Sequence record: PZ445487.1
Origin: a phage
DNA: 64,000 nt
Direction: 5' to 3' (one strand)
This document shows positions 2,215 through 56,789 of this stretch, piece after piece. The notes beneath the pieces are model-generated. The model made no database searches and was not told the origin of the DNA. It saw nothing but the letters and a program-made list of their open reading frames with translations. Position numbers and translations under genes: made by a program. Numbering within the stretch: position 1 is the first letter of the stretch; each line of letters begins with the position of its first letter.

Positions 2215-2221
2215 CTAAATA
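2215..2221 (+). promoter_or_regulatory. Late-promoter-like CTAAATA motif upstream of gene 18
   Basis: cactaaatatc about 40 nt upstream of the gp18 ATG; resembles the T4 late promoter TATAAATA with C at the first position. Confidence 0.3.
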
Positions 2222-5240: not shown

Positions 5241-5307
5241 TGTCCTCGGTGCTGGGGGAATGTTATTCCCCCTCACTAATTACAAGAAAACGTTGAGGAC
5301 TTAGATC

Positions 5308-6997: not shown

Positions 6998-7004
6998 CTA
7001 AATA
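6998..7004 (+). promoter_or_regulatory. Late-promoter-like CTAAATA motif
   Basis: aactaaatata about 28 nt upstream of the ATG at 7032. Confidence 0.3.
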
Positions 7005-8215: not shown

Positions 8216-8222
8216 CTAAATA
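8216..8222 (+). promoter_or_regulatory. Late-promoter-like CTAAATA motif upstream of gene 22
   Basis: cactaaatact about 30 nt upstream of the ATG at 8251. Confidence 0.3.
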
Positions 8223-9090: not shown

Positions 9091-9181
9091 TTTTAGCAGC
9101 CACAGCCCTCGAAAGGGGGCTTGATTTTGAACTACTAAGTAATTTCAACTTAACTGAATATCAATGTAAGGAACGAGCATC

Positions 9182-14374: not shown

Positions 14375-14379
14375 TTAAA

Positions 14380-14404
14380 TACCCCCAAAATTGGGGGTAT
14401 TTTT
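14380..14404 (+). terminator. Hairpin with T-run
   Basis: taccccc-aaaatt-gggggta followed by ttttt immediately before the ATG at 14405. Confidence 0.45.
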
Positions 14405-15133
14405 ATGAACGCACAAATCTACGATGTCCTTTCCTCTGGTAACGCATTTAGCAATCCGCTTCCGTCCCTCTCCGGTCCCTCACAGGATTTAATCACCAGT
14501 GGTAGTACCAATATACCATTGATAACTACCAACGCGACTCCGGAGATGCAGGCGGCTATGTCAGCAGGTGGACTAACACCAGAAAAACTCACAGCAGCCA
14601 CCACCATGTATAGCACCGCCAACACGGGGATAACGACACTGAACACATATGGCGACCAAAGTATCAATGACGCGTATTCTCGCATCGGTACTTCCGTGTC
14701 ATACAAATCAGGTTTGAAAAGTATATCACGAGAGCCAAACAATTGTGATTTGATCAACAAGGCTTTTGGTGTTGTTCAGGATTTAGGACGCCAATGGCTG
14801 AATGCTATGGAAGGCGCTCTCCAGACTGTGACTAACAAGATATCGGAATTGTATGACATGATTATGGAAGGTGCCTCAGAAGGGATGGCAAAACTACAGC
14901 AATTGGCTGCTGAAGTAACAGGACATATCAATGAGGCAATAACCGCCGTCAATGGAGTTATAAATGATATCACCGATGGGATAGCTGCAGAACTTGCTCA
15001 TATTGAAAGTATGATCAAAGAATGTCTAAACTTCTCTTTTGCGAATGTTCTTGGAGAATGGGCCAAAGATCTCTGTGCTGGAGGCGTTATTGATAAAATA
15101 GGGACTCCAGAATTAAAAGAGTCCCTGAAATAA
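14405..15133 (+). CDS. Hypothetical protein (242 aa)
   Basis: Ser/Thr/Asn-rich N-terminal part, helical C-terminal part; no assignable motif. Confidence 0.5.
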   Translation: MNAQIYDVLSSGNAFSNPLPSLSGPSQDLITSGSTNIPLITTNATPEMQAAMSAGGLTPEKLTAATTMYSTANTGITTLNTYGDQSINDAYSRIGTSVSYKSGLKSISREPNNCDLINKAFGVVQDLGRQWLNAMEGALQTVTNKISELYDMIMEGASEGMAKLQQLAAEVTGHINEAITAVNGVINDITDGIAAELAHIESMIKECLNFSFANVLGEWAKDLCAGGVIDKIGTPELKESLK

Positions 15134-16809: not shown

Positions 16810-17555
16810 TGGTTTCTCTACAGGCTTTGCGCAAACTTAATGACTTTGAAAATCGTCATCATACATTTCAGCAATATTCCTTGCCGTTTAAGGAACTGAC
16901 TTGCGTAACTACCGAAAATGGTCGTCACTATGTTTCCCCCACTGGAGTCAAACTAACTTCAGTGACGACCATGTTAGGGCGTACTGGTGACCACACATGG
17001 TTAGAAGCCTGGCGGGACAAGTTGGGGCATGAAGCTGCTGATATAGAAACACATCGTTGCGCAGACCGTGGGGAAAAACTTCATTTGGCTTGTGAGTTGT
17101 ATCTCAAAAACAGACCAATGAAGGAAGTTCTGGAAGCTGCAGGGGAATACGTGTTTATGTTCAAACAGGTTTTCCCCTACCTTAACAAAATGAGCAAGAT
17201 ATATGCACAAGAGATTCCATTATATAGCGAAGTCCTGGGTCTTGCTGGTCGTGTTGACCTCATCGGGGTTTACGAAGGAATTCCAAGCATAATCGATTTC
17301 AAAACATCTAACACCCTAAAAACTCGAAGCATGATAGAAGATTATAGTATTCAATTGTGTCTATACTCAGTCATGTTTCAACAAATGTTTAATGTCAAGA
17401 TAGAGCGTTTAATCAATATTATATCCAACGAAAATGCCCTTGTTCCCACCATAATCGAATTCGATCGCAAAGACGTTATTTCTAAAATGTTTGACCGTGT
17501 CCGTCTGTATCACAAAATGGACAAAGAACAGAAAGGAATCTGGGCGGATCGCTAA
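16809..17555 (+). CDS. Putative PD-(D/E)xK family nuclease
   Basis: GRVDLIG ... IIDFKTSN fits the D...(D/E)xK core of RecB/Cas4/lambda-exonuclease-type nucleases; ATG overlaps the preceding stop. Confidence 0.45.
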   Translation: MVSLQALRKLNDFENRHHTFQQYSLPFKELTCVTTENGRHYVSPTGVKLTSVTTMLGRTGDHTWLEAWRDKLGHEAADIETHRCADRGEKLHLACELYLKNRPMKEVLEAAGEYVFMFKQVFPYLNKMSKIYAQEIPLYSEVLGLAGRVDLIGVYEGIPSIIDFKTSNTLKTRSMIEDYSIQLCLYSVMFQQMFNVKIERLINIISNENALVPTIIEFDRKDVISKMFDRVRLYHKMDKEQKGIWADR

Positions 17556-17584
17556 ATACTCCATAATATTGGGGGAAATTAGTG

Positions 17585-19794: not shown

Positions 19795-20463
19795 ATGCAA
19801 GAGATCACTCTCTCCGAACGCACTTTACAACTGCTGGCTAACTTTGAAACCATCTGCCCCTCTATCGTTCTGGCACCTGGTAAAAAGTTACGCACTGTTA
19901 ACGATTCCAGTACAGTTATCGCTATTGCCGACATTGACGAAGACTTCCCGTTCGAATTCCCGATTCTGGATCTGACCAAATTGCTGGCAATCCAGCGTCT
20001 GCCGAGTTTTAAAGGCGGTAAAATTGAAATGTCGGAAGACCACATTTTGCTGAAAGGTGAAAACTCCCAACTGCAATTCTGGCGTTCCGCTAAAGAACTG
20101 ACTGTCGTTCCGGCAGACAGCATCGATCTCCCGTCTGTAGAATTTGAAGCAACAGTCACTCCTGAAAAAATGAAAGAGCTGACTCGCGCCTGTTCTACTC
20201 TGGGCCACAAAACTGTACGCCTGGTGGCCAGCGGCGGTAAAACTCGTCTGGTGGGCACGACCACTACTATCGATAATTCCAACGATTACACTGTTGAGTT
20301 GGGTGAAACAACTCTGGGTGATTTTGCTATGCCTGTTGATGTGGTCAACCTGAAAATGATCGAAGGCAACTACGTGATCCGCGCCTGTGCCGAAATGCAA
20401 CTGGTTAACTTCCAATCCGCAGATGGCACCATCAACTATTACGTCGGCATGCAGCTGGATTAA
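19795..20463 (+). CDS. 45: Sliding clamp (gp45-like)
   Basis: 222 aa; N-terminus LSERTLQLLANFETICPS parallels T4 gp45 LSKDTTALLKNFATINSG; followed by the clamp-loader genes. Confidence 0.85.
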   Translation: MQEITLSERTLQLLANFETICPSIVLAPGKKLRTVNDSSTVIAIADIDEDFPFEFPILDLTKLLAIQRLPSFKGGKIEMSEDHILLKGENSQLQFWRSAKELTVVPADSIDLPSVEFEATVTPEKMKELTRACSTLGHKTVRLVASGGKTRLVGTTTTIDNSNDYTVELGETTLGDFAMPVDVVNLKMIEGNYVIRACAEMQLVNFQSADGTINYYVGMQLD

Positions 20464-23337: not shown

Positions 23338-23406
23338 TATAATCCGTTATTCACTAAACAACAGAGGCTATAATGGCCTCTGTTTTTGTATTCTAGAGAG
23401 GATACC

Positions 23407-35993: not shown

Positions 35994-36050
35994 TTCAATA
36001 ACATTAGGGCGGTTATTATTAAACCGCCTTTTATTTGAGAGATCTATATT

Positions 36051-41879: not shown

Positions 41880-42671
41880 ATGGGTATGAATTTTGTAGAC
41901 AGGGGTGATAACGTCACCAAATATTTCACAGACGAAGATAATGACCGTGTTGTTGGAATATTGAGAGATTGGATTCCGGCTCGCAAAAAGGCTTTGGCCG
42001 AAGGAACACCCCTACCAAGAATCCCCAATTATGTGGCCATGAATGTTCAGATGATTATTAAGAACATGAGTATGCGCTACAACTATCGTGATTATCCATA
42101 CCGCGAAGACATGGTCAGTGAGGCCGTTGTCAACATCCTTCGTTACCTCCATACATTTGACGTCAGTCATATCGGCAAGAAAGGAAAAATCAATTTCTTC
42201 TCTTGGGTAACGATGTGCGCCGATCGTTCATTCGCCAAGAAACTCACCAGTGAAGAAGAACACAATTATATCAAGTTGCGTTCATTTGAAGAAGCAGGTG
42301 GTTTCGCTGCATTATCAGATGACCCAGACTTCCAGCAACAGACATTCGTAGACAGCACTGGTATAACAATGGACTTCCGTGAGCGTATCGGAAATTTTGA
42401 AACTAAGAAAGAAGCACAGCGCGAAAAGGAACGCCAAAAGCAAATCGCCATCAAAGAAGAGGAAAAGAATAAGAAAATTCCTCGCGGTATACTTCAATGT
42501 CTCACAAAGAGTGAAAATACCATTACCGCCGACGCCGAAGATAATTCAGACTATGACTTCGGCTCTACTCAATTCAATCTGGAAGACGAAATATGTTCTA
42601 TGGAACCAGATTGGGAAGAAGCAAAGAAACGAGCATTAGAACGGGAGCAACAAAATAATGGCGATTGCTAA
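41880..42671 (+). CDS. 55: Late-transcription sigma factor (gp55-like), extended
   Basis: Region VAMNVQMIIKNMSMRYNYRDY...NILRYLHTFD...FFSWVTMCADRSF parallels T4 gp55 (LAIMLIAEGLSKRFNFSGY...KGLHNFD...YITQACFNAFVQRI); gene order 55-47-46 as in T4. Confidence 0.5.
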   Translation: MGMNFVDRGDNVTKYFTDEDNDRVVGILRDWIPARKKALAEGTPLPRIPNYVAMNVQMIIKNMSMRYNYRDYPYREDMVSEAVVNILRYLHTFDVSHIGKKGKINFFSWVTMCADRSFAKKLTSEEEHNYIKLRSFEEAGGFAALSDDPDFQQQTFVDSTGITMDFRERIGNFETKKEAQREKERQKQIAIKEEEKNKKIPRGILQCLTKSENTITADAEDNSDYDFGSTQFNLEDEICSMEPDWEEAKKRALEREQQNNGDC

Positions 42672-46420: not shown

Positions 46421-46539
46421 TGGTTAGTGCTGGTGTAAACCACGCCCCTGCCACGGGGATGTTTACGTCAAAGTGATCGGTCGTATTAAACTATTCCGTA
46501 AGTTGGGTAAATCTTTTACTGAATATTTGAGACAAACAT

Positions 46540-46824
46540 ATGTCAGAAGAGAAAGATGAAATTCAGATTGCTTGTGATATCGCTGTCGAGTTATGGAATC
46601 AGCGAAACAAACATTATCAGGTGACGTTGACCCCAAAGCGTTATCTAGAGCAAGGTGGCTTAATAGTCGTTGATGCCGTGTTAGGTTTCAACAAATATAC
46701 TGACATGCAAATCTTGGACGGGGATTTCACTATTGCTTCCAATACAGCTTGGGATGATCCTATGGAATTTGTCTACGGTTGGTTGGAATGCATCGAGGAA
46801 TCATACCATCTGATCTACGAATAA
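46540..46824 (+). CDS. Hypothetical protein (94 aa)
   Basis: ORF followed by a hairpin terminator. Confidence 0.45.
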   Translation: MSEEKDEIQIACDIAVELWNQRNKHYQVTLTPKRYLEQGGLIVVDAVLGFNKYTDMQILDGDFTIASNTAWDDPMEFVYGWLECIEESYHLIYE

Positions 46825-46830
46825 GGTGAA

Positions 46831-46862
46831 GGGCACTAAATATCAAGTGCCCTTTATCTTTT
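46831..46862 (+). terminator. Terminator hairpin with CTAAATA in its loop
   Basis: gggcact-aaatatca-agtgccc followed by tttatctttt; the loop carries the late-promoter-like ctaaata. Confidence 0.5.
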
Positions 46863-46920
46863 AACCCTGTCAGGAGGCTCAATCGAGCTGCAAGTCGACA
46901 AACACATAAGGAACGCCATC

Positions 46921-47538
46921 ATGACGATGACAACGTTGAAGGCCATGGCCTTGTCCGTGACCTTTACCATTGCCAGCGGGAGTGTGCACGCTTCCCAAAG
47001 TACCACCCAATGTGATTACGAATTTTCTGATCAACAACTTTCAACCATGGCCACAGCCTATCACATAGGCAAACAACAAGACCTTGGTTTCACCCTCGCC
47101 GCGATATCATGGAGGGAAAGCCGCGCCGGAGAAGATGTTGTATCCATGCGGAATAACCTGAAATCGGCTAACATGGGGGCATTTCAAAATCGCGTCCAAA
47201 CCGTCGGGAAACGGGAGGGATGCAAAACACAGAAGTGTTACGCCAATGTCGCGATCAAATTACTGGTCAATCAAGAATATGCTGCCAATGCTGCCCTTGA
47301 TGAAATGAATTTCTGGCTAGAATATCACAACCAAAACATTCGCAAATCCCTTTCCTCTTACAATGCTGGGTTCAATCGTAACCAGAAATCCAATTCTTAT
47401 GCAGCCGACGTCGTGAAGAAGGCTAAATATCTTCAACGATGTGTGTCTTTCAAAAGCATGGCAATAAACCCAAAGGTCGACCCAGGAGTGATCGCCATGA
47501 ATAAGCGCACGATTGAGAAACTCAAGAGGACCAGATAA
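46921..47538 (+). CDS. Secreted lytic transglycosylase-like protein
   Basis: Signal peptide MTMTTLKAMALSVTFTIASGSVHA; AISWRESR (candidate catalytic Glu-Ser) and SYNAGFNR (YNxG motif) as in SLT-domain enzymes. Confidence 0.45.
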   Translation: MTMTTLKAMALSVTFTIASGSVHASQSTTQCDYEFSDQQLSTMATAYHIGKQQDLGFTLAAISWRESRAGEDVVSMRNNLKSANMGAFQNRVQTVGKREGCKTQKCYANVAIKLLVNQEYAANAALDEMNFWLEYHNQNIRKSLSSYNAGFNRNQKSNSYAADVVKKAKYLQRCVSFKSMAINPKVDPGVIAMNKRTIEKLKRTR

Positions 47539-48176
47539 TGAATATCACTCCATCTCAGACCGGATATGAACACATAATGGTGTTTCTGGCTATTCAGGGC
47601 GCGAAGGAAGGGATCATTACTTCAGAATATTCCGGTACAATGCGCCTTGCGGATTATGTCGCGCCGGAAGCATTCATCAAGAAATGCATCGACGCTTGGT
47701 GCCTTTATGCACTCGGCACGTATCCATCCCCTCCTGCTGGTGAGTTATTGTTTACCATACCGACTCCGGCAACTGGTGACACAGACGCGATATTCGCCGA
47801 TATGCTGTCAAAGGGTTATCTGACATATGACAGTGCTCACAGCGTGTATGATTTTTCTGCGCTGAATCGTATCTTCGGATTCACCATAACTTCTGAAGCG
47901 AATATTCCTGATTATGGAATACTAGCATGGGGCGTCGACGGTTTGGGGGCAACATATGCATCTTCGGATGTCGGTCCTGTGTTGATAGACCCAGGGGTGA
48001 CGATGGAGCAATACATGTCACAATTCCCTCAGCATAATGTTACCGGAAGCGACATCATTATTGTCTATCCTGGTTCTAATGCGCTACCCCGTTTGGTCAC
48101 GGGTTGGCAGTCACAGTTGAAGGACATTGTCTCTGGAATCAGGTTCCATATTCCTGTTGTCAATCCAACACCTTAA
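47538..48176 (+). CDS. Hypothetical protein (212 aa)
   Basis: ATG overlaps the preceding stop; no motif. Confidence 0.45.
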   Translation: MNITPSQTGYEHIMVFLAIQGAKEGIITSEYSGTMRLADYVAPEAFIKKCIDAWCLYALGTYPSPPAGELLFTIPTPATGDTDAIFADMLSKGYLTYDSAHSVYDFSALNRIFGFTITSEANIPDYGILAWGVDGLGATYASSDVGPVLIDPGVTMEQYMSQFPQHNVTGSDIIIVYPGSNALPRLVTGWQSQLKDIVSGIRFHIPVVNPTP

Positions 48177-48189
48177 AATATTCAATAAA

Positions 48190-48232
48190 AGGGGCAAAAG
48201 CCCCTTTACTTCTTCAATAACCCACGTATAAT
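48190..48232 (+). promoter_or_regulatory. Hairpin overlapping a sigma70-type early promoter (PeSL-like cassette)
   Basis: Hairpin aggggc-aaaa-gcccct; -35 ctttac, 17-nt spacer, -10 tataat; conserved leader ataagcag...aggaactacattATG follows. Confidence 0.5.
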
Positions 48233-48280
48233 TCTAAACATAAGCAGTACGACACCAACTTGAAAAGCAGGAACTACATT

Positions 48281-48556
48281 ATGAAAATCATCCTCGACGC
48301 ATATATCCGTTACGGCAGCAAATGGTTGATGGCCAAAGTTTACGACGGTGAAGAATTAGTCCACGCCCAAACCGCCCCTTCTGAACAATTGCGTGAAATT
48401 ATGAAACGCGATTTTCCTACTGCTGAAATGATTGAACCTGCCAACCAAACCGAAGTTGACAAAGAATGGGAACGCGAATGGAGTCCGGCGGCGTTGGCAC
48501 AATTTGATAAGAATTACAACAATCGCCAAAACGCGTCTCGCCCGTTTCGTCGTTAA
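48281..48556 (+). CDS. Hypothetical protein (91 aa)
   Basis: ATG after the conserved leader; the track ORF begins at an upstream TTG (48260). Confidence 0.45.
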   Translation: MKIILDAYIRYGSKWLMAKVYDGEELVHAQTAPSEQLREIMKRDFPTAEMIEPANQTEVDKEWEREWSPAALAQFDKNYNNRQNASRPFRR

Positions 48557-48621
48557 GAAGCACCCCTTTCTTTTCGCTAATTAAGGGAAACCGCACCGAT
48601 TTTATAATCAGGAGAATTACA

Positions 48622-51009
48622 ATGGCCATCCCATCTTTCTTGAACTTTCTTGAAGAGTCTAAACAATTAGACGAAGCGTTTAACTCATCCCCGTATGAAT
48701 TGACATTCGGCAAGAAGAACGCTGGTGACATTTTCTTCACATTTGTTGATGAAGACGAAAAAGAATTCCGTATTCAATTCTATACCCCACAAGGTCTAGG
48801 CAAGAATGTTCGCCAAGTCTTTATCGGTCAGAAGCGTGGTTCCACATATCCCGATGCCATCGGTCGTTTCAAGAATCCGATGCGTGTTATCGCATCCATG
48901 ATTGAAGCAACAAAGCAATTCATGGCGACGCCTTTGGGGAAAACCATTGACGGCTTTGCAATTAACTTCTCCAAGAAAGCATTGGAGCGTGGTGTTACCC
49001 TCCTGCCGAAGATTATCCGTCAGTCCGGCCTGAAGCAAAAGCTCAATGTCATGGACCTGACGTATACCCCTATCCCTGATCGTGCATTCGTATGGGTTGT
49101 GCGTAAAGGCAAGGATCCTGCTCAGGTATTCGATGGTCCGAAAATGAAAGGCGTGACTTGGGACGACCCAGACAAAGTCGGTGACGTTCCTGACCAGGCT
49201 GCTCGTGACGCCGCACTACAAGGTGACATGGATGATTTGAGCCAATCCATAAATGCCGATTCTCGCTGGATTCTGACCAAAGCTGATCATACTCAGCCTA
49301 TGCTGGTCTGGTCTGGTAAAGAACGTGGGCGGACTATTACCGCCAATATCGCACCTCACGCGAATGAACCTGGTGTGTATGCTGGTAGTATCATGAACGA
49401 GAAACGGATCCGCGCTCAATCCCCAGACGCTATTGTACGCCAACTGGGATTACCGCAGATCCCTGTGAATATTCTGAATGATTTCACCAAGCAGTCGTCC
49501 ATCTTCTGGAAAGAGATGACGGGGGATTCTGGAAAAATAGACATGCAGACTTTGCCAAAAACAGGATCTGTGGATGACTTACGAAATCAGGGTTATATTG
49601 CTCGCCTTCTGGGGATTGTAGACACATATGCTCCACAACAGGTCGGTATGTATGCAGGTGAGAAACTAACACGAATCGGCGCGGGCAAATATCGTACTTC
49701 GGGTGGTCTGGACATTCAGGTTTATTTCTGGGGAATTGTCAACGGAAAACTTTCTGTAGAAGTGGTTTCTGATTTATCTGGCAATGAACAGCTGATGCTG
49801 GAAGGCGACGTGAAAAACGCTGCTTTTGAAATCGTCAGTGCGATATCCCGTGCTGCTGATTCTCAGTTCAACGGTGAAGTGGAATGTCGTGTTGTTCCGA
49901 TCAACGGTGCCCCATACCCGATTCAAAAGGTTTCCCGTTCTCAGGGTTATTCTTATGTCGATTGTATTTCGTTTACTTTGAAGATCGCCGATGCATTGTT
50001 AAATCGATTTACTCTGGGTAAGGCAGTCAAACTCGATCTGATAAAAGAGTTCCCTCGAACGACGTTTATTGTTCGTTATGACTGGCGCAGCAAAGATACT
50101 CTGATGGTCCAGTCTTCTGATGGGAAGACTATCTTCGGCGAAATCAACACAAATTCCAGTGATAACGCTGTCATCACTGCGAACCTGAAAGCCCCAAGCA
50201 ATGCGAAGATATTTGGTGAAACCGTTCATGGGTTCTCTGTGGCTTGGGACTTCCAGTTCCCTGCGGGTAGCCAGCTGCAAGCCGCACGGTTCGTTACGAA
50301 CGTGACTTACGACTTCGATCGTAATAAGGCCAACATCACGACCATGCTGACAGAAAATGGCCGAAATGTAGTCAATAGCAGCGGATATGACATTCAGTTA
50401 TCTGTCAAGTCTGTGCAAGATGCATTGAATGAGACTTCACAACGCCTGAAAGACGCTGCGGCTCAATTGAGCCATCTTGGTTCATCAAACTATAACCCGA
50501 ACAAGCTGTTCCTGAATGATATCACCGTCAGTAAGTTTGGTGCAATTATGTTCCAAGACAAAGATCTGGCACAGTCCAAAAACCGCACGGCAGTCATTGA
50601 TGCTTTGGCTCGGGCGAAAGATCAGGTCGCTGGTGGTAAGAATGCAGGCGATCTGGCCACCTATGCCGGATCCATTCGTGATAGCGCTCCTAATGGACGA
50701 GATCTGGATTGGCAGGTATACACAGCCAGTAATGGTACAGTTCTGAATGTTGCCTGGGATATCACTTTCCGTCGCAATACGACCGAAGGAGCATATCGTG
50801 AATTCAAGGATCAGATCAACCGTGCCAACCAATACCTGCAAACGGTATACAACGACGCGAAATCTAAAGGCTATAATCCTACCGAGCCAAATCTCATGAC
50901 TCTTGAACGCGCTCGCCAATCCGACGAATGGGCTATGAGTAATGGTGATAGTGCATACAGTGAATATGAACAATCGCTGGGTGGTAATCTTCAGATTAGT
51001 CTGAAATAA
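48622..51009 (+). CDS. Large hypothetical protein (795 aa)
   Basis: Long ORF with RBS aggaga; contains the motif SPDAIVRQLGLPQIPVNIL also found at the C-terminus of the next gene product. Confidence 0.55.
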   Translation: MAIPSFLNFLEESKQLDEAFNSSPYELTFGKKNAGDIFFTFVDEDEKEFRIQFYTPQGLGKNVRQVFIGQKRGSTYPDAIGRFKNPMRVIASMIEATKQFMATPLGKTIDGFAINFSKKALERGVTLLPKIIRQSGLKQKLNVMDLTYTPIPDRAFVWVVRKGKDPAQVFDGPKMKGVTWDDPDKVGDVPDQAARDAALQGDMDDLSQSINADSRWILTKADHTQPMLVWSGKERGRTITANIAPHANEPGVYAGSIMNEKRIRAQSPDAIVRQLGLPQIPVNILNDFTKQSSIFWKEMTGDSGKIDMQTLPKTGSVDDLRNQGYIARLLGIVDTYAPQQVGMYAGEKLTRIGAGKYRTSGGLDIQVYFWGIVNGKLSVEVVSDLSGNEQLMLEGDVKNAAFEIVSAISRAADSQFNGEVECRVVPINGAPYPIQKVSRSQGYSYVDCISFTLKIADALLNRFTLGKAVKLDLIKEFPRTTFIVRYDWRSKDTLMVQSSDGKTIFGEINTNSSDNAVITANLKAPSNAKIFGETVHGFSVAWDFQFPAGSQLQAARFVTNVTYDFDRNKANITTMLTENGRNVVNSSGYDIQLSVKSVQDALNETSQRLKDAAAQLSHLGSSNYNPNKLFLNDITVSKFGAIMFQDKDLAQSKNRTAVIDALARAKDQVAGGKNAGDLATYAGSIRDSAPNGRDLDWQVYTASNGTVLNVAWDITFRRNTTEGAYREFKDQINRANQYLQTVYNDAKSKGYNPTEPNLMTLERARQSDEWAMSNGDSAYSEYEQSLGGNLQISLK

Positions 51010-51013
51010 GTCA

Positions 51014-51035
51014 TAGCCCCTTCGGGGGCTAAATA
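51014..51035 (+). promoter_or_regulatory. Hairpin followed by late-promoter-like CTAAATA
   Basis: tagcccc-ttcg-ggggcta then ctaaata about 25 nt upstream of the ATG at 51061. Confidence 0.35.
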
Positions 51036-51060
51036 CATCAAAATCCTTAGGAGATCCACG

Positions 51061-51606
51061 ATGAAACCGTTTATCGAATATTTTAAAGAACAAGCTCAAC
51101 AACCGCAAACTCATGGCGGCATACAAGGCAAAAGTGTAACCATCACCAAACAGGCCGACGGAACCCAATGGTGTACTGGTGCCACCGTGACCCAGATCAC
51201 TCCAGATAATCAGGCCGACATCTATAATCTGGAATTGACTAATGGCAACACCATCAAAGTGAAGCTAACTCCAAACCAGACCCACGGCATTACCCAAGGC
51301 CAAGAAGTTGTTGCCGTCCATGATGGTTTTGAATTTTTCTTCGGCAAGTCAGCTGACAAAGGTCAGGTTACTGAAGCGGAAGGCTGGCGTTTCGTCGGTG
51401 ACCGTGGCGCTCATATTCTGATGTATGACGCAAAAGTTGGCGGTGCCTCCACTATCCTTCGCAGTCCAACAGATCGAACCAAATTTGTTGGTGGTCTCAT
51501 CAACGGTAGAAAAATTTTGGGTAATTCCCCAGAAGAACTGGCGGCAAAATTAGGTCTTCCAAAAATTCCTGATAATTTATTAAAATCGTTTTTTGGTAAA
51601 AAGTGA
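51061..51606 (+). CDS. Hypothetical protein (181 aa)
   Basis: RBS aggaga; C-terminus SPEELAAKLGLPKIPDNLLKSFF shares a motif with the preceding large protein. Confidence 0.5.
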   Translation: MKPFIEYFKEQAQQPQTHGGIQGKSVTITKQADGTQWCTGATVTQITPDNQADIYNLELTNGNTIKVKLTPNQTHGITQGQEVVAVHDGFEFFFGKSADKGQVTEAEGWRFVGDRGAHILMYDAKVGGASTILRSPTDRTKFVGGLINGRKILGNSPEELAAKLGLPKIPDNLLKSFFGKK

Positions 51607-51619
51607 TTATAAAATACAA

Positions 51620-51646
51620 TCCCCCTAAATACAGGGGGATTTTCTT
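51620..51646 (+). terminator. Terminator hairpin with CTAAATA in its loop
   Basis: tccccct-aaatac-aggggga followed by ttttcttttt. Confidence 0.5.
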
Positions 51647-51662
51647 TTTAGGGGTAAATATC

Positions 51663-52016
51663 ATGGTCAATGCGAGTATATTCATCAACCGTGGACTGCT
51701 TGCTATAGCCCACTCCCATGCCCTCCACTTCGTTACAACGTCCTATGCCAAGCACAAGGCACTCGGGGAGTTCTACGGGGAACTGGAGGACTTGCTGGAT
51801 ACCTTCACAGAGGCATATATCGGCGCGGGTGGTGTATATGTCCCAGGGTTTGAGAATATTAAACTGTACAACCCAGATCCTATATCGTATGTCAACAGTG
51901 TCGTTATCGACGTAAACGGAATTTATGGTCAATGCGACAGCCATCTTCAAAATACGCTTGATGAAATCAAAACTTTGTGCTATCAAACGATTTACAAACT
52001 GAAGCAATTGTCCTAA
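51663..52016 (+). CDS. Hypothetical protein (117 aa)
   Basis: Internal ATG of track ORF 51603..52016, chosen because the upstream part overlaps the terminator hairpin. Confidence 0.4.
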   Translation: MVNASIFINRGLLAIAHSHALHFVTTSYAKHKALGEFYGELEDLLDTFTEAYIGAGGVYVPGFENIKLYNPDPISYVNSVVIDVNGIYGQCDSHLQNTLDEIKTLCYQTIYKLKQLS

Positions 52017-52079
52017 CTCAATAGGATCATCGTCAGGTTATAATTTTGCCCATTCGTCATCAATAGGATACAGATAACA

Positions 52080-52697
52080 ATGGGCAAAATCTTTATACCT
52101 TCTCACTCAGAAGGTTGTCAAATCGCTGCAAAATTTCTACACAAACAAATGAATTGTGGTGCTGTGTTCGTAGAACCAAATTCATTCGATAATCGTGAAT
52201 CCCCTGACGCCATCGGGTTCAGACCTGGGGGTTGTTCTATATTAATGGAAGTTAAAGTCTCCCGCGCCGACTTCCTGACAGACAAAAAGAAACCTCATCG
52301 CATGAATCCTTCCATAGGCATGGGAGCATATCGTTTCTATGTTTGCCCAGCAGATGTTATTAAAATTGAAGACCTCCCTCCCAAATGGGGTTTGTTGTAC
52401 TTCACCCCTAGAAAATCTTTGAAGCCCGTTCACGTTCCGAATATGCAATATTCCTCTTTGTCTTCACCGGAACATTATGCATCATATTTGTCTAAATCTT
52501 TGGGCAAAAGAAGTCCTACAGATATCCCTCCTTATCTATTAGGGTACAAACAGATGCTGGAAGAATTTGCCCACTTTGATCGCAATCAGGTTGCGGAACA
52601 AAATATTCTGTATGGGGCTTGGCGACAGCTTTGCATAGCTCAAAGTCGCGGGGTGGATTATAATGTGACAGAAGTGTTCCAGAGGCCAAATATCTAA
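52080..52697 (+). CDS. Hypothetical protein, possible PD-(D/E)xK nuclease fold
   Basis: DAIGFRPGGCSILMEVKVS fits a D...(I/L)xEVK core; otherwise unassigned. Confidence 0.4.
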   Translation: MGKIFIPSHSEGCQIAAKFLHKQMNCGAVFVEPNSFDNRESPDAIGFRPGGCSILMEVKVSRADFLTDKKKPHRMNPSIGMGAYRFYVCPADVIKIEDLPPKWGLLYFTPRKSLKPVHVPNMQYSSLSSPEHYASYLSKSLGKRSPTDIPPYLLGYKQMLEEFAHFDRNQVAEQNILYGAWRQLCIAQSRGVDYNVTEVFQRPNI

Positions 52698-54059: not shown

Positions 54060-54089
54060 CTTTACTCTTAAATAATCATGCACTATTAT
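54060..54089 (+). promoter_or_regulatory. Sigma70-type early promoter
   Basis: -35 ctttac, 18-nt spacer, -10 tattat; a hairpin (ggcgg...ccgcc, about 54101-54121) and the leader ...ggaattacatcATG follow. Confidence 0.45.
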
Positions 54090-54894: not shown

Positions 54895-54963
54895 TCGACA
54901 CTAAATCCTCAAGTTCGACTTTCACTTTAAATACCTTCGCATACATTGCGGAGGTATTTTCTT

Positions 54964-55758
54964 ATGGCCATTCTAAAACTTGGCAACCGAGGTTCTGAAG
55001 TCAAAGCACTTCAACAAAGCCTCAACAAAATCGGTTTCTCTCTTACAGCCGATGGCATATTTGGTAAGGCAACAGAGAATGCCGTCAAATCCGTTCAGGC
55101 AGGTGCTGGATTGGTTATTGATGGTATTGCTGGGCCAAAGACCTTCTATGCTATCCGCAACGCTGGAGACGCTCACCAGGAACATCTGACCGAAGCGGAC
55201 TTGGTTGACGCAGCACGTGAACTTGGTGTTGAGCTGGCCAGTATGAAAGCGGTGAACCAGGTAGAATCCCGTGGTACGGGTTTTACCAAAACTGGCAAGA
55301 TCAAAACTCTGTTTGAGCGCCACATCATGTACAAAAAGGTGACGGCCAAATTCGGGCAAGCAAGAGCCAATGCTCTGTACCAACTCTACCCAACATTGGT
55401 TAACCCCAATTCTGGCGGGTATATCGGCGGAGACGCGGAGTTGGAACGCCTTCAGGGTGCAATCGCCCTTGACGAGGACTGCGCTTACGAGAGTGCTTCC
55501 TACGGCCTATTCCAGATCATGGGGTTCAACTGCCAAATCTGTGGCTATTCAAATGCCAAAGAGATGTTCACTGATTTCCTGACTGGTGAACGCGCTCATC
55601 TTCTGGCATTTGTCAAGTTCATCAAGGCTGATGCCAATATGTGGAAAGCCCTGAAGAACAAGAATTGGGCCGAGTTTGCTCGTCGGTACAATGGTCCGGC
55701 ATATGCGAAAAACCAGTATGATACTAAACTGGCGGCAGCATACAAGAGTTTCTGTTAA
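54964..55758 (+). CDS. Endolysin: peptidoglycan-binding domain plus N-acetylmuramidase-like domain
   Basis: N-terminal PG_binding_1-type repeat (LKLGNRGSEVKALQQSLNKIGF...DGIFGKATENAVKSVQ...IDGIAGPKTF); C-terminal FARRYNGPAYAKNQYDTKLAAAY typical of phage muramidases. SD gcggagg. Confidence 0.8.
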   Translation: MAILKLGNRGSEVKALQQSLNKIGFSLTADGIFGKATENAVKSVQAGAGLVIDGIAGPKTFYAIRNAGDAHQEHLTEADLVDAARELGVELASMKAVNQVESRGTGFTKTGKIKTLFERHIMYKKVTAKFGQARANALYQLYPTLVNPNSGGYIGGDAELERLQGAIALDEDCAYESASYGLFQIMGFNCQICGYSNAKEMFTDFLTGERAHLLAFVKFIKADANMWKALKNKNWAEFARRYNGPAYAKNQYDTKLAAAYKSFC

Positions 55759-56705: not shown

Positions 56706-56789
56706 ATACCACACGAACTTCCCCGTCGCCTTCAATCCATGGAGGCGACGTATAATAACAGCCTGCATAAACACAAACCGAGGATCGCT

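What the first reader, a model, noticed from the sequence alone, without database searches (positions are those of the whole stretch)
46831..51646. Late-promoter-like CTAAATA elements, three of them inside or next to terminator hairpins
The heptamer CTAAATA, resembling the T4 late promoter TATAAATA, occurs upstream of genes 18, 67 and 22, and also in the loops of hairpins at about 46836 and 51625 and just after a hairpin at about 51029. Combining a terminator and a late promoter in one hairpin would let the same site stop early transcripts and start late ones.
Basis: partly seen in the sequence, partly recalled or inferred. Interest (0 to 1): 0.4.

Follow-up and report, generated by a model that had tools for sequence, protein, structure and literature searches.

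The report
Late promoters embedded in terminator hairpins
In phage CBA120, CTAAATA is the already-published late-gene promoter box; at two sites it sits in the loop of a transcription terminator, a compact, conserved layout that probably lets late RNAs start just inside the stop signal, which is a neat detail but not a new kind of system.

Summary
The window is Escherichia phage CBA120 (Kuttervirus, Ackermannviridae), reverse strand. All coordinates in the finding are exact.

- **Placement of the motif.** CTAAATA is not over-represented by raw count (8 vs 6.3 expected). All 8 copies lie on the coding strand and 7 are intergenic. Genome-wide, 15 of 25 copies lie 20-60 nt upstream of a co-directional start codon (P~1e-22). 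It is the most enriched upstream 7-mer.
- **What it precedes.** It sits ahead of virion, lysis and recombination genes. It has no -35 partner. The phage encodes gp55, gp33 and gp45. The motif is already published for this genus (CTAAATAcCcc) and for Aeromonas phage Aeh1.
- **The three hairpins.** The hairpins at 46823-46860 and 51618-51641 are terminator-like and are annotated as terminators in relatives. The motif part of their loops is conserved across four genera. The hairpin at 51014-51031 has no T-run.
- **Predicted start sites.** A late start at motif+12 falls in the 3' arm of each terminator, so late RNAs would lack the hairpin. This step is inferred, not shown.
- **Wider pattern.** Late boxes also sit in hairpins that sequester the ribosome-binding site, as in T4 gene e. 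Early-type -10 boxes sit at the apex of five further terminators.

Verdict: known motif, modestly new layout.

The parts
46823..46860 (+). Intrinsic-terminator-like hairpin after orf115 (core stem 46829-46854, 8-nt loop, T-run TATCTTTT at 46855-46862)
   Evidence: RNA fold gives -22.6 kcal/mol, z = -7.7. The orthologous site is annotated as a terminator in phages Mooltan and KWBSE43-6. 92.7% of pair cells are kept in 10 relatives, against 34-66% for slid controls, with only one-sided changes.
46836..46842 (+). CTAAATA late-promoter box in the terminator loop; predicted late start about 46848, in the 3' arm; 85 nt before orf114
   Evidence: The motif is invariant in Kutter-, Agtre- and Limestonevirus and is CTAATTA in Taipeivirus, while the remaining loop bases vary. 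Its distance to the ATG is atypical (-85, against -30 to -49 elsewhere).
46861..46920 (+). Nearly invariant non-coding leader of orf114 (contains GGAGG and a GCTC-NNNN-GAGC hairpin)
   Evidence: conserved across four genera, only the small loop varies, and 1-nt indels show it is non-coding. There is no Rfam match and no significant fold.
46921..47538 (+). orf114, SLT-domain (lytic transglycosylase, T4 Vs.1-like) protein; proposed late gene
   Evidence: Pfam SLT, E = 7.6e-5, above the curated cut-off; annotation.
47423..47429 (+). CTAAATA inside orf114 (codons GCT AAA TAT), 115 nt before orf113
   Evidence: All three synonymous sites are conserved in every relative while neighbouring synonymous sites vary. 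It is either a chance match or an internal promoter; unresolved.
48577..48583 (+). CTAATTA variant box 45 nt before orf111
   Evidence: CTAATTA falls in the upstream window 3 times out of 8 genome-wide (P = 1e-4), also before the gp20 portal gene.
51014..51031 (+). GC-rich hairpin TAGCCCC-TTCG-GGGGCTA after orf111, without a T-run (not a canonical terminator)
   Evidence: Fold gives -13.3 kcal/mol, z = -4.4. The stem is conserved and the loop is free to vary (TTCG, TCCG, TCTG, CGCA) in relatives. It is not annotated as a terminator in Mooltan or KWBSE43-6.
51029..51035 (+). CTAAATA late-promoter box abutting the hairpin; predicted start about 51041; 32 nt before orf109
   Evidence: At the same position relatives carry CTAAATA, CTAATTA or cTTATAAATA, the last being the T4 consensus TATAAATA.
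51061..51606 (+). orf109, proposed late gene (orthologue annotated as a LIMEstone virion protein)
   Evidence: Annotation note; LIMEstone1 virion mass-spectrometry table, ORF78-85 cluster (PMC3296691).
51618..51641 (+). Intrinsic-terminator-like hairpin after orf109 (AATCCCCCT / AGGGGGATT, loop AAATAC, tail TTCTTTTT)
   Evidence: Annotated as a terminator in Mooltan and KWBSE43-6. Sub-threshold Rfam hits here come from the terminator part of the models only.
51625..51631 (+). CTAAATA late-promoter box in the terminator loop; predicted start about 51637, in the 3' arm; 38 nt before orf108
   Evidence: 19 of the 21 related loci carry the hairpin with C/TTAAATA in its loop. L021 has lost the hairpin but keeps CTAAATA at the same distance from the ATG. 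The most distant locus, L033, has neither.
51663..52016 (+). orf108 (DUF5856), proposed late gene; orthologue annotated as a LIMEstone virion protein
   Evidence: Pfam DUF5856, E = 1.3e-28.
2215..2221 (+). CTAAATA 49 nt before gp18 (tail sheath)
6998..7004 (+). CTAAATA 34 nt before the gp67-like prohead core gene
8216..8222 (+). CTAAATA 35 nt before gp22 (scaffold)
17552..17558 (+). CTAAATA 33 nt before the UvsW-like helicase gene
14375..14402 (+). TTAAATA box whose AAATACCCCC tail is the 5' arm of a hairpin that pairs with the Shine-Dalgarno of orf171 (start 14405)
   Evidence: read-through RNA -19.8 kcal/mol; RNA from the predicted late start 0.0 kcal/mol.
54927..54959 (+). TTAAATA box plus a 13-bp hairpin that sequesters the GGAGG of the endolysin gene (start 54964)
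   Evidence: Conserved in 19 related loci across the four genera, with 98.7% of pair cells kept in the aligned unique variants.
41880..42671 (+). gp55-type late sigma factor gene
   Evidence: PHROG 234 'late sigma transcription factor', E = 1.6e-53; annotation.
19795..20463 (+). gp45 sliding-clamp gene (late-transcription co-activator in T4)
   Evidence: RefSeq annotation; Kutter 2011 (PMC3184105).

Best explanation
CTAAATA is the -10-type box of the T4-like, gp55-dependent late promoters of phage CBA120. Functional variants are ATAAATA, TTAAATA and probably CTAATTA.

The stretch 46.8-52 kb is a small cluster of late (virion and lysis-related) genes set between early/middle replication genes. 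Each late unit there has its own box.

At two junctions (orf115/orf114 and orf109/orf108) the box occupies the AT-rich loop of the intrinsic terminator that ends the upstream unit. Transcripts coming from upstream contain both arms, fold and terminate. RNA polymerase carrying gp55 starts about 12 nt after the first base of the box, which is inside the 3' arm. The late transcript therefore lacks the 5' arm, cannot form the terminator, and runs into the downstream gene.

At the third junction (orf111/orf109) the box simply follows a GC hairpin that has no U-tract. That hairpin is more likely a weak terminator or a 3'-end stabiliser.

Shown here: motif placement, enrichment and conservation; hairpin stability; presence of the late-transcription genes.
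Inferred: the start-site position (from T4 and Aeh1 geometry), termination efficiency, and timing.
For: **The motif behaves as a promoter.**
- It is the most enriched 7-mer in the 90-nt upstream regions: 18 observed against 1.35 expected, P about 1e-14.
- 15 of 25 copies lie in the 1.3% of positions that are intergenic and 20-60 nt upstream of a co-directional start, P = 1.4e-22.
- Only the 7-mer carries information; there is no -35 element.
- Downstream genes are gp18, gp22, gp67, gp14, gp6, gp48, tailspikes 2-4, RuvC/gp49-like, UvsW-like, orf108 and orf109.
- The gp55 homologue is in the window. gp33 and gp45 are annotated and are noted by Kutter 2011.
- The same heptamer is the Aeh1 late promoter, beginning at -12.
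- CTAAATAcCcc is cited as a Viunalikevirus regulatory motif.

**The loop copies are under sequence constraint.**
- Upstream of orf114, the 7 motif positions are fixed apart from an A/T change at position 5, while the remaining loop bases vary.
- Upstream of orf108, 19 of 21 related loci keep the hairpin with the box in its loop, and L021 keeps CTAAATA at -38 after losing the hairpin.
- By contrast, the ordinary hairpin upstream of orf109 has a freely varying loop.
- Upstream of orf109, CTAAATA, CTAATTA and TATAAATA replace one another at one position.

**The hairpins behave as terminators.**
- Fold energies and T-runs.
- Terminator annotation in two relatives.

**Late expression of the downstream genes.**
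- The orf108 and orf109 orthologues are annotated as LIMEstone virion proteins. The LIMEstone1 mass-spectrometry table lists a virion-protein cluster at ORF78-85.

**The same logic appears elsewhere in the genome.**
- Ribosome-binding-site-sequestering hairpins occur in 7 of 31 genes with the motif, against 2 of 172 without (P = 3e-5).
- T4 uses this arrangement for genes e, soc, 49 and I-TevI.
- Five early-type TTCAAT-N14-TATAAT promoters have their -10 box at the apex of a terminator-like hairpin, and a sixth sits at the apex of a hairpin without a T-run on that strand.
Against: - No 5'- or 3'-end data exist for any Ackermannviridae phage in the searched library.
- The stems show no double-sided compensatory changes. 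They are almost invariant.
- A hairpin across position -26 is about as frequent upstream of genes without the motif (17/82 vs 8/31, P = 0.37). The overlap may reflect compaction and not selection for a switch.
- The overall energy difference between read-through and late transcripts is not significantly larger for motif genes (P = 0.14).
- The box upstream of orf114 is 85 nt from the ATG, an outlier, and in Taipeivirus it reads CTAATTA.
- The hairpin at 51014-51031 lacks a U-tract.
- The terminator upstream of orf108 would also stop late transcripts from the orf109 promoter, so 'early stop, late start' is too simple.
Confidence: 0.7

Rival explanations
1. Compaction only. The boxes are real late promoters and the hairpins are real terminators. 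They overlap simply because intergenic spacers are short, and an AT-rich box fits only in the loop of a GC-rich hairpin. Nothing selects for a temporal switch.
For: The spacer upstream of orf108 is 56 nt and the box sits at the usual -38. Hairpins straddle -26 in 21% of motif-less genes with spacers of at least 25 nt. Early-type -10 boxes show the same arrangement.
Against: The spacer upstream of orf114 is 96 nt, with room for a separate promoter, yet the box is in the loop and is conserved in three genera. Whatever its origin, the geometry still means promoter-proximal transcripts escape the hairpin.
Confidence: 0.25
2. The two loop copies are not promoters. They are terminator loops that happen to resemble the box. 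orf114 and orf108 are expressed by read-through or from other promoters.
For: The copy upstream of orf114 lies at an atypical distance (-85) and reads CTAATTA in Taipeivirus. The raw count of the heptamer is not above chance.
Against: The motif positions in the loop are conserved while the other loop bases vary. L021 keeps the box without the hairpin. Other terminator loops in this genome are mostly GNRA or UUCG tetraloops. CTAATTA is itself enriched upstream of late genes such as gp20.
Confidence: 0.07
3. DNA-level structure. The inverted repeats extrude as cruciforms or single-strand hairpins, for example behind replication forks. This presents the box unpaired in the loop and pre-melts the promoter for gp55-RNA polymerase, analogous to the hairpin promoters of phage N4 virion RNA polymerase (that comparison is from my own knowledge).
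For: -10-type boxes of both promoter classes sit at hairpin apices.
Against: Most late boxes (gp18, gp22, gp67 and others) have no inverted repeat around them. In the hairpins that sequester the ribosome-binding site, the box lies in the stem and not the loop. L021 works without the hairpin.
Confidence: 0.04

Closest known systems
T4-type late promoters (TATAAATA, recognised by gp55 with gp33 and the gp45 clamp)
   Same: A single AT-rich box at about -10, no -35 element, located upstream of virion and lysis genes. gp55, gp33 and gp45 homologues are encoded. Relatives carry the exact T4 consensus TATAAATA at the orf109 site.
   Different: C instead of A at the first position of the heptamer in most copies. 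Dependence on gp55 and the start site are not tested.
Aeromonas phage Aeh1 late promoters (CTAAATA, Nolan et al. 2006, PMC1524935)
   Same: Identical heptamer, described as beginning at -12.
   Different: A different phage family (Straboviridae vs Ackermannviridae). No link with hairpins is described in the passage read.
Viunalikevirus conserved regulatory motif CTAAATAcCcc (Adriaenssens et al. 2012, as cited in PMC7283392)
   Same: The same motif in the same group of phages, CBA120 included.
   Different: The original paper could not be read. Here the 'cCcc' tail is explained in many copies as an anti-Shine-Dalgarno arm of a hairpin, and two copies are shown in terminator loops. I do not know whether that paper noted either point.
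T4 genes e, soc, 49 and I-TevI: late promoter inside the 5' strand of an inhibitory hairpin (PMC3014915, PMC2988022)
   Same: The late start lies inside a hairpin, so late RNA lacks the 5' arm and escapes the structure that acts on read-through RNA. The CBA120 endolysin and orf171 sites copy this arrangement exactly.
   Different: At the three focal sites the hairpin does not cover the ribosome-binding site. In two it is a terminator, so what would be escaped is termination and not translational repression.

Membership tests
T4-type (gp55-dependent) late promoter | AT-rich box matching (T)ATAAATA | tested here: met
   CTAAATA matches 6 of 7 positions of ATAAATA. ATAAATA and TATAAATA also occur at equivalent sites.
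T4-type (gp55-dependent) late promoter | No conserved -35 element | tested here: met
   Across 18 sites only the 7 motif columns exceed 0.7 bit over the range -40 to +26.
T4-type (gp55-dependent) late promoter | Genome encodes gp55, gp33 and gp45 | tested here: met
   gp55: PHROG 234, E = 1.6e-53. gp45 and gp33 are annotated. Kutter 2011 reports all three.
T4-type (gp55-dependent) late promoter | Placed just upstream of late (virion, lysis) genes, co-directional | tested here: met
   15 of 25 copies lie 20-60 nt upstream of a start, P = 1.4e-22. Gene list. Virion status of the orf108 and orf109 orthologues.
T4-type (gp55-dependent) late promoter | Late, replication-coupled initiation about 6 nt after the box, dependent on gp55 | not testable with these tools
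   No transcript-end data were found.
Intrinsic (Rho-independent) terminator | GC-rich stem-loop | tested here: met
   All three hairpins fold well: -22.6, -13.3 and -15.4 kcal/mol, with 0-1 of 200 shuffles folding as well.
Intrinsic (Rho-independent) terminator | U-tract directly after the stem | tested here: inconclusive
   Met at 46855-46862 (TATCTTTT) and 51642-51649 (TTCTTTTT). Not met at 51032-51045 (AAATACATCAAAAT).
Intrinsic (Rho-independent) terminator | Transcript 3' ends at the site | not testable with these tools
   Only in-silico terminator annotation in relatives is available.
T4 gene e-type translational hairpin with an internal late promoter | Hairpin sequesters the Shine-Dalgarno or AUG of the downstream gene | tested here: not met
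   At the three focal sites the 3' arms end 61, 30 and 22 nt before the ATG and do not include the Shine-Dalgarno. The feature is met at the endolysin (54929-54959) and orf171 (14377-14402) sites.
T4 gene e-type translational hairpin with an internal late promoter | Late promoter positioned so the late start lies inside the hairpin | tested here: met
   Predicted starts at 46848 and 51637 fall in the 3' arms. The prediction uses the -12 register.

The most novel reading that the evidence does not exclude
The inverted repeats act on the DNA as well as on the RNA. Extruded as hairpins or cruciforms on supercoiled or replicating DNA, they would present the -10-type box (CTAAATA for late promoters, TATAAT for early ones) single-stranded in the loop. 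Terminator and promoter would then be one structure-gated element coupling initiation to DNA topology or replication, as with phage N4 hairpin promoters.
Probability: 0.04. Interest if true: 0.7.

Novelty: new variant of a known kind. Interest (0 to 1): 0.33.

Why it matters
The 2011 CBA120 genome paper stated that the late-promoter sequence of ViI-like phages was unknown. The motif was later published, but its function still rests on bioinformatics.

The analysis here adds the following:
- Exact, testable start and stop positions for three late units.
- An explanation for the 'cCcc' tail of the published consensus: it is an anti-Shine-Dalgarno arm.
- A recurring layout in Kuttervirus genomes, in which promoter boxes are packed into the loops of terminators or into hairpins that sequester the ribosome-binding site.

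This is useful for annotating the many Ackermannviridae genomes now being sequenced for biocontrol. It is also useful for engineering these phages, for example when placing reporters without breaking a composite terminator/promoter. It does not reveal a new mechanism.

Tried and rejected
- **Raw over-representation of the heptamer.** Not significant. The signal lies in placement only.
- **Rfam scan of 46500-52100.** Only sub-threshold hits driven by the terminator (Phe leader, STnc100, GcvB). No family matched.
- **Covariation in the orf114 terminator and the endolysin hairpin.** No double-sided changes. The stems are nearly invariant, so structure is maintained but not proven.
- **Test that hairpins overlap the predicted start more often at motif genes.** Not significant (8/31 vs 17/82, P = 0.37).
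- **Overall energy difference between read-through and late transcripts.** Not significant (P = 0.14). Only the specific ribosome-binding-site sequestration measures are significant (P = 3e-5 and 0.0013).
- **Fold of the conserved orf114 leader.** No more stable than shuffles (z = +0.67).
- **orf114 as a RegB endoribonuclease, as some records annotate it.** Not supported. Pfam gives an SLT transglycosylase domain.
- **Literature.**
  - Searches for Ackermannviridae or Kuttervirus transcript-end data found nothing.
  - A search for prior descriptions of promoters inside terminator hairpins found nothing relevant.
  - Adriaenssens 2012 is not held.
- **TTAAATA at 54068.** Dismissed. It arises from a single-base difference between the window and RefSeq, inside an early-type TTCAAT -35 box.
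Full report
**Identity of the window.** The window is Escherichia phage CBA120 (JN593240 / NC_016570; Kuttervirus, Ackermannviridae), read as the reverse complement. Window position x corresponds to record position 110302 - x. The window differs from RefSeq at two bases, 45472 and 54070. Eighty-one of the 85 annotated genes in the window are on the + strand.

**Check of the observation.**
- CTAAATA occurs eight times, all on the + strand, at 2215, 6998, 8216, 17552, 46836, 47423, 51029 and 51625.
- With the RefSeq annotation these lie 49 nt before gp18, 34 nt before a 56-aa gp67-like prohead gene, 35 nt before gp22, 33 nt before a UvsW-like helicase, 85 nt before orf114, inside orf114, 32 nt before orf109 and 38 nt before orf108.
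- The hairpins are real.
  - 46823-46860 folds at -22.6 kcal/mol (z = -7.7) and is followed by TATCTTTT.
  - 51618-51641 is a 9-bp GC-rich stem followed by TTCTTTTT.
  - 51014-51031 is TAGCCCC-TTCG-GGGGCTA at -13.3 kcal/mol, but it is followed by AAATACATCAAAA, so it has no T-run.
- The first two orthologous sites are annotated as terminators in phages Mooltan and KWBSE43-6. The third is not.

**Is it more than chance?**
- By raw count, no: 8 observed against 6.3 +/- 2.5 in shuffles.
- By placement, overwhelmingly yes.
- I assembled the whole genome from four fetched pieces and entered its 203 coding sequences.
- Of 25 genome-wide copies, 16 are fully intergenic, in a genome that is 8.9% intergenic (P = 1.4e-11).
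- Fifteen lie in the 1.3% of positions that are intergenic and 20-60 nt upstream of a co-directional start codon (P = 1.4e-22).
- In an unbiased scan, CTAAATA is the single most enriched 7-mer in the 90-nt upstream regions: 18 genes against 1.35 expected.
- The runner-up, TTCAATAA, belongs to the early-type promoter TTCAAT-N14-TATAAT.

**What the motif is.**
- The genes behind it are gp48, gp18, gp67, gp22, gp14, gp6, three tailspikes, a 4.8-kb structural gene, a RuvC/gp49-like resolvase, the UvsW-like helicase, orf108, orf109 and orf114.
- Variants are enriched in the same upstream window:

| Variant | Copies in the upstream window | P | Genes |
|---|---|---|---|
| ATAAATA | 6 of 17 | 5e-8 | gp54, hub, gp5 |
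| TTAAATA | 3 of 17 | 1.3e-3 | endolysin, gp2 |
| CTAATTA | 3 of 8 | 1e-4 | gp20, orf111 |

- Only the seven motif columns carry information between -40 and +26. There is no -35 element, and there is a mild C-rich run just downstream.
- The window encodes a gp55-type late sigma (PHROG 234, E = 1.6e-53) and gp45. gp33 lies elsewhere in the genome.
- On the literature:
  - Kutter et al. 2011 noted all three proteins and wrote that the late recognition sequence was 'not yet identified' for ViI-like phages.
  - Nolan et al. 2006 had found CTAAATA, beginning at -12, as the late promoter of Aeromonas phage Aeh1.
  - A later paper cites 'CTAAATAcCcc' and 'TTCAAT[N14]TATAAT' as the two characteristic regulatory motifs of this phage group. 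The source is the 2012 Viunalikevirus proposal, which I could not open.
- The late-promoter identification is therefore well supported and already in the literature.

**Are the downstream genes late?**
- In the annotation of phage aagejoakim, the orf109 and orf108 orthologues are labelled as matching 'unknown structural protein [Dickeya virus Limestone]'.
- The LIMEstone1 virion mass-spectrometry table lists a cluster of unknown structural proteins at ORF78-85. Its sizes (13.2 and 20.3 kDa) fit these two proteins. The one-to-one mapping is my inference.
- orf114 carries an SLT transglycosylase domain.
- The stretch 46.8-52 kb is thus a small late-gene island. gp55, gp47 and gp46 lie upstream of it and the primase downstream.

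**Conservation of the three sites.** I compared eight annotated relatives from four genera (Kutter-, Agtre-, Limestone- and Taipeivirus). I also compared 15-21 IMG/VR loci per site, found through the downstream proteins.
- *orf108 site.* Nineteen of 21 loci carry the hairpin with C/TTAAATA in the loop, although the upstream gene differs between lineages. One locus (L021) has a different upstream sequence without the hairpin, yet keeps CTAAATA at the same distance from the ATG. The most distant locus (L033) has neither.
- *orf114 site.* The hairpin is present in all. The seven motif positions are fixed apart from an A/T change at position 5 (CTAATTA in Taipeivirus). The remaining loop bases vary freely: TCAA, TCAC, TCTC, CCAC, CTAC, TCTG.
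- *orf109 site.* The hairpin stem is kept but its tetraloop varies (TTCG, TCCG, TCTG, CGCA), as expected for a purely structural loop. Directly after it, CTAAATA, CTAATTA or cTTATAAATA (the exact T4 consensus) replace one another.
- These contrasts indicate sequence-specific constraint on the box itself, including when it lies in a loop.
- Stem covariation is uninformative. There are only one-sided changes (G-C to G-U), with 93% and 99% of pair cells kept against 34-66% in slid controls.

**Mechanism.**
- Using the register reported for Aeh1 (first base of the box at -12), late starts are predicted at 46848, 51041 and 51637.
- The first and third fall inside the 3' arms of the terminator hairpins (46846-46860 and 51633-51641).
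- A transcript arriving from upstream contains both arms plus the U-tract and should terminate. A transcript started at the box lacks the 5' arm, folds at about 0 kcal/mol, and continues.
- Two qualifications apply.
  - The orf108 terminator would also stop late RNA that began at the orf109 promoter, so it separates two late units and does not only separate early from late.
  - Terminator-like hairpins lie across position -26 of the next gene about as often when no box is present (17/82 vs 8/31, P = 0.37). Overlap is therefore what short spacers produce, and an AT-rich box can only be accommodated in the loop of a GC-rich stem.
- Compaction is a sufficient origin for the orf108 site (56-nt spacer). 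It is less so for the orf114 site (96-nt spacer, box at -85).

**A broader pattern found on the way.**
- Of about 30 intergenic late-type boxes, at least nine have a strong hairpin spanning the predicted start.
- Besides the two terminators there is a second class of hairpin.
  - The 5' arm is the tail of the box (AAATAcCcc) and the 3' arm contains the Shine-Dalgarno or the AUG.
  - It occurs at the endolysin (54927-54959), orf171 (14375-14402), tailspike 4, gp14 and three small genes. Looser versions occur at tailspikes 2 and 3, gp6 and RuvC.
  - Such sequestering hairpins occur in 7 of 31 motif genes against 2 of 172 others (P = 3e-5).
  - Read-through RNA folds at -14 to -20 kcal/mol. RNA from the late start folds at 0 to -4 kcal/mol.
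- This is the arrangement demonstrated for T4 genes e, soc, 49 and I-TevI. It explains the 'cCcc' tail of the published consensus.
- The endolysin version is conserved in all four genera.
- Likewise, five early-type promoters have their TATAAT or TATTAT box at the apex of a terminator-like hairpin. Two of them are in the window, at 36006-36030 and 23360-23384. A sixth sits at the apex of a hairpin that has no T-run on that strand.
- Roughly 7 of about 31 intergenic terminators thus carry the next promoter's -10-type box.

**Comparison with what is known, and novelty.**
- The motif is a member of the T4-type late promoter class. The box, the absence of a -35 element, the gp55/33/45 genes and the late-gene placement were all tested and met. 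Start site and gp55 dependence are untestable here.
- The motif is already published for this genus.
- Two of the three hairpins meet the sequence definition of intrinsic terminators. The third fails the U-tract criterion.
- The focal sites are not members of the T4 gene-e-type translational hairpin class, because the ribosome-binding site is not sequestered. They work by the same principle: a late start inside a hairpin escapes its effect.
- I found no earlier description of late boxes in terminator loops, but the search library is limited.
- I rate this a new variant of known kinds, of moderate-to-low interest. It is tidy and conserved, and directly testable by 5'/3'-end mapping, but mechanistically unsurprising.

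Noticed in passing
window 54927-54966 (endolysin) and 14375-14407 (orf171): A TTAAATA late-type box is followed by a 13-bp or 11-bp hairpin whose 3' arm contains the Shine-Dalgarno. Read-through RNA folds at -18 to -20 kcal/mol; RNA from the predicted late start folds at 0 to -4. This is the same layout as T4 lysozyme gene e. Such hairpins occur in 7 of 31 motif genes against 2 of 172 others (P = 3e-5), and they explain the 'cCcc' tail of the published consensus.
   Followed up: yes
window 35994-36036, 23347-23392 and 56731-56762; also record 37489, 148005, 152626, 155612: Early-type promoters (TTCAAT-N13-15-TATAAT) have their -10 box at the apex of a terminator-like hairpin. Upstream of nrdA it is the -35 box that sits in a hairpin loop. 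'Promoter box in terminator loop' is therefore a genome-wide layout for both promoter classes.
   Followed up: partly
window 46861-46920: The 60-nt leader between the terminator and the orf114 start is almost invariant across four genera that otherwise share about 70-80% identity. It contains GGAGG and a GCTC-NNNN-GAGC hairpin in which only the loop varies. One-nt indels show it is non-coding. There is no Rfam match and no significant fold. Function unknown.
   Followed up: partly
window 47423-47429: The CTAAATA inside orf114 (codons GCT AAA TAT) is identical in all relatives, although neighbouring synonymous sites vary. It could be an internal late promoter for orf113, 115 nt downstream, or a chance match.
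   Followed up: partly
window 5276-5282, 48577-48583, 9135-9141: The variant CTAATTA lies 32 nt before the gp20 portal gene and 45 nt before orf111, and it replaces CTAAATA at orthologous sites in some relatives. The major capsid gene gp23 has only CTAAGTA, 47 nt upstream, just after a terminator.
   Followed up: partly
window 45472 and 54070: These are the only two differences from NC_016570 in 64 kb (T for G, and A for C). The second turns the TTCAAT -35 box of an early-type promoter into TTAAAT, which creates a spurious TTAAATA match at 54068.
   Followed up: partly
window 46921-47538 and 51663-52016: Public annotations conflict. orf114 orthologues are variously called RegB or endoribonuclease, Vs.1 or lytic transglycosylase (Pfam supports SLT). 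orf108 orthologues are called 'starvation-inducible transcriptional regulator', MobD.6, rI.-1 or virion structural protein (Pfam: DUF5856).
   Followed up: partly
L021:1090-1203 (IMGVR_UViG_3300045988_142553): In this relative the sequence upstream of the orf108 orthologue is unrelated and has no hairpin, yet CTAAATA is kept 38 nt before the ATG.
   Followed up: no
window 54915-54926: A conserved direct repeat, TTCACTTTCACT, lies immediately upstream of the endolysin TTAAATA box in all relatives examined. Its role is unknown.
   Followed up: no
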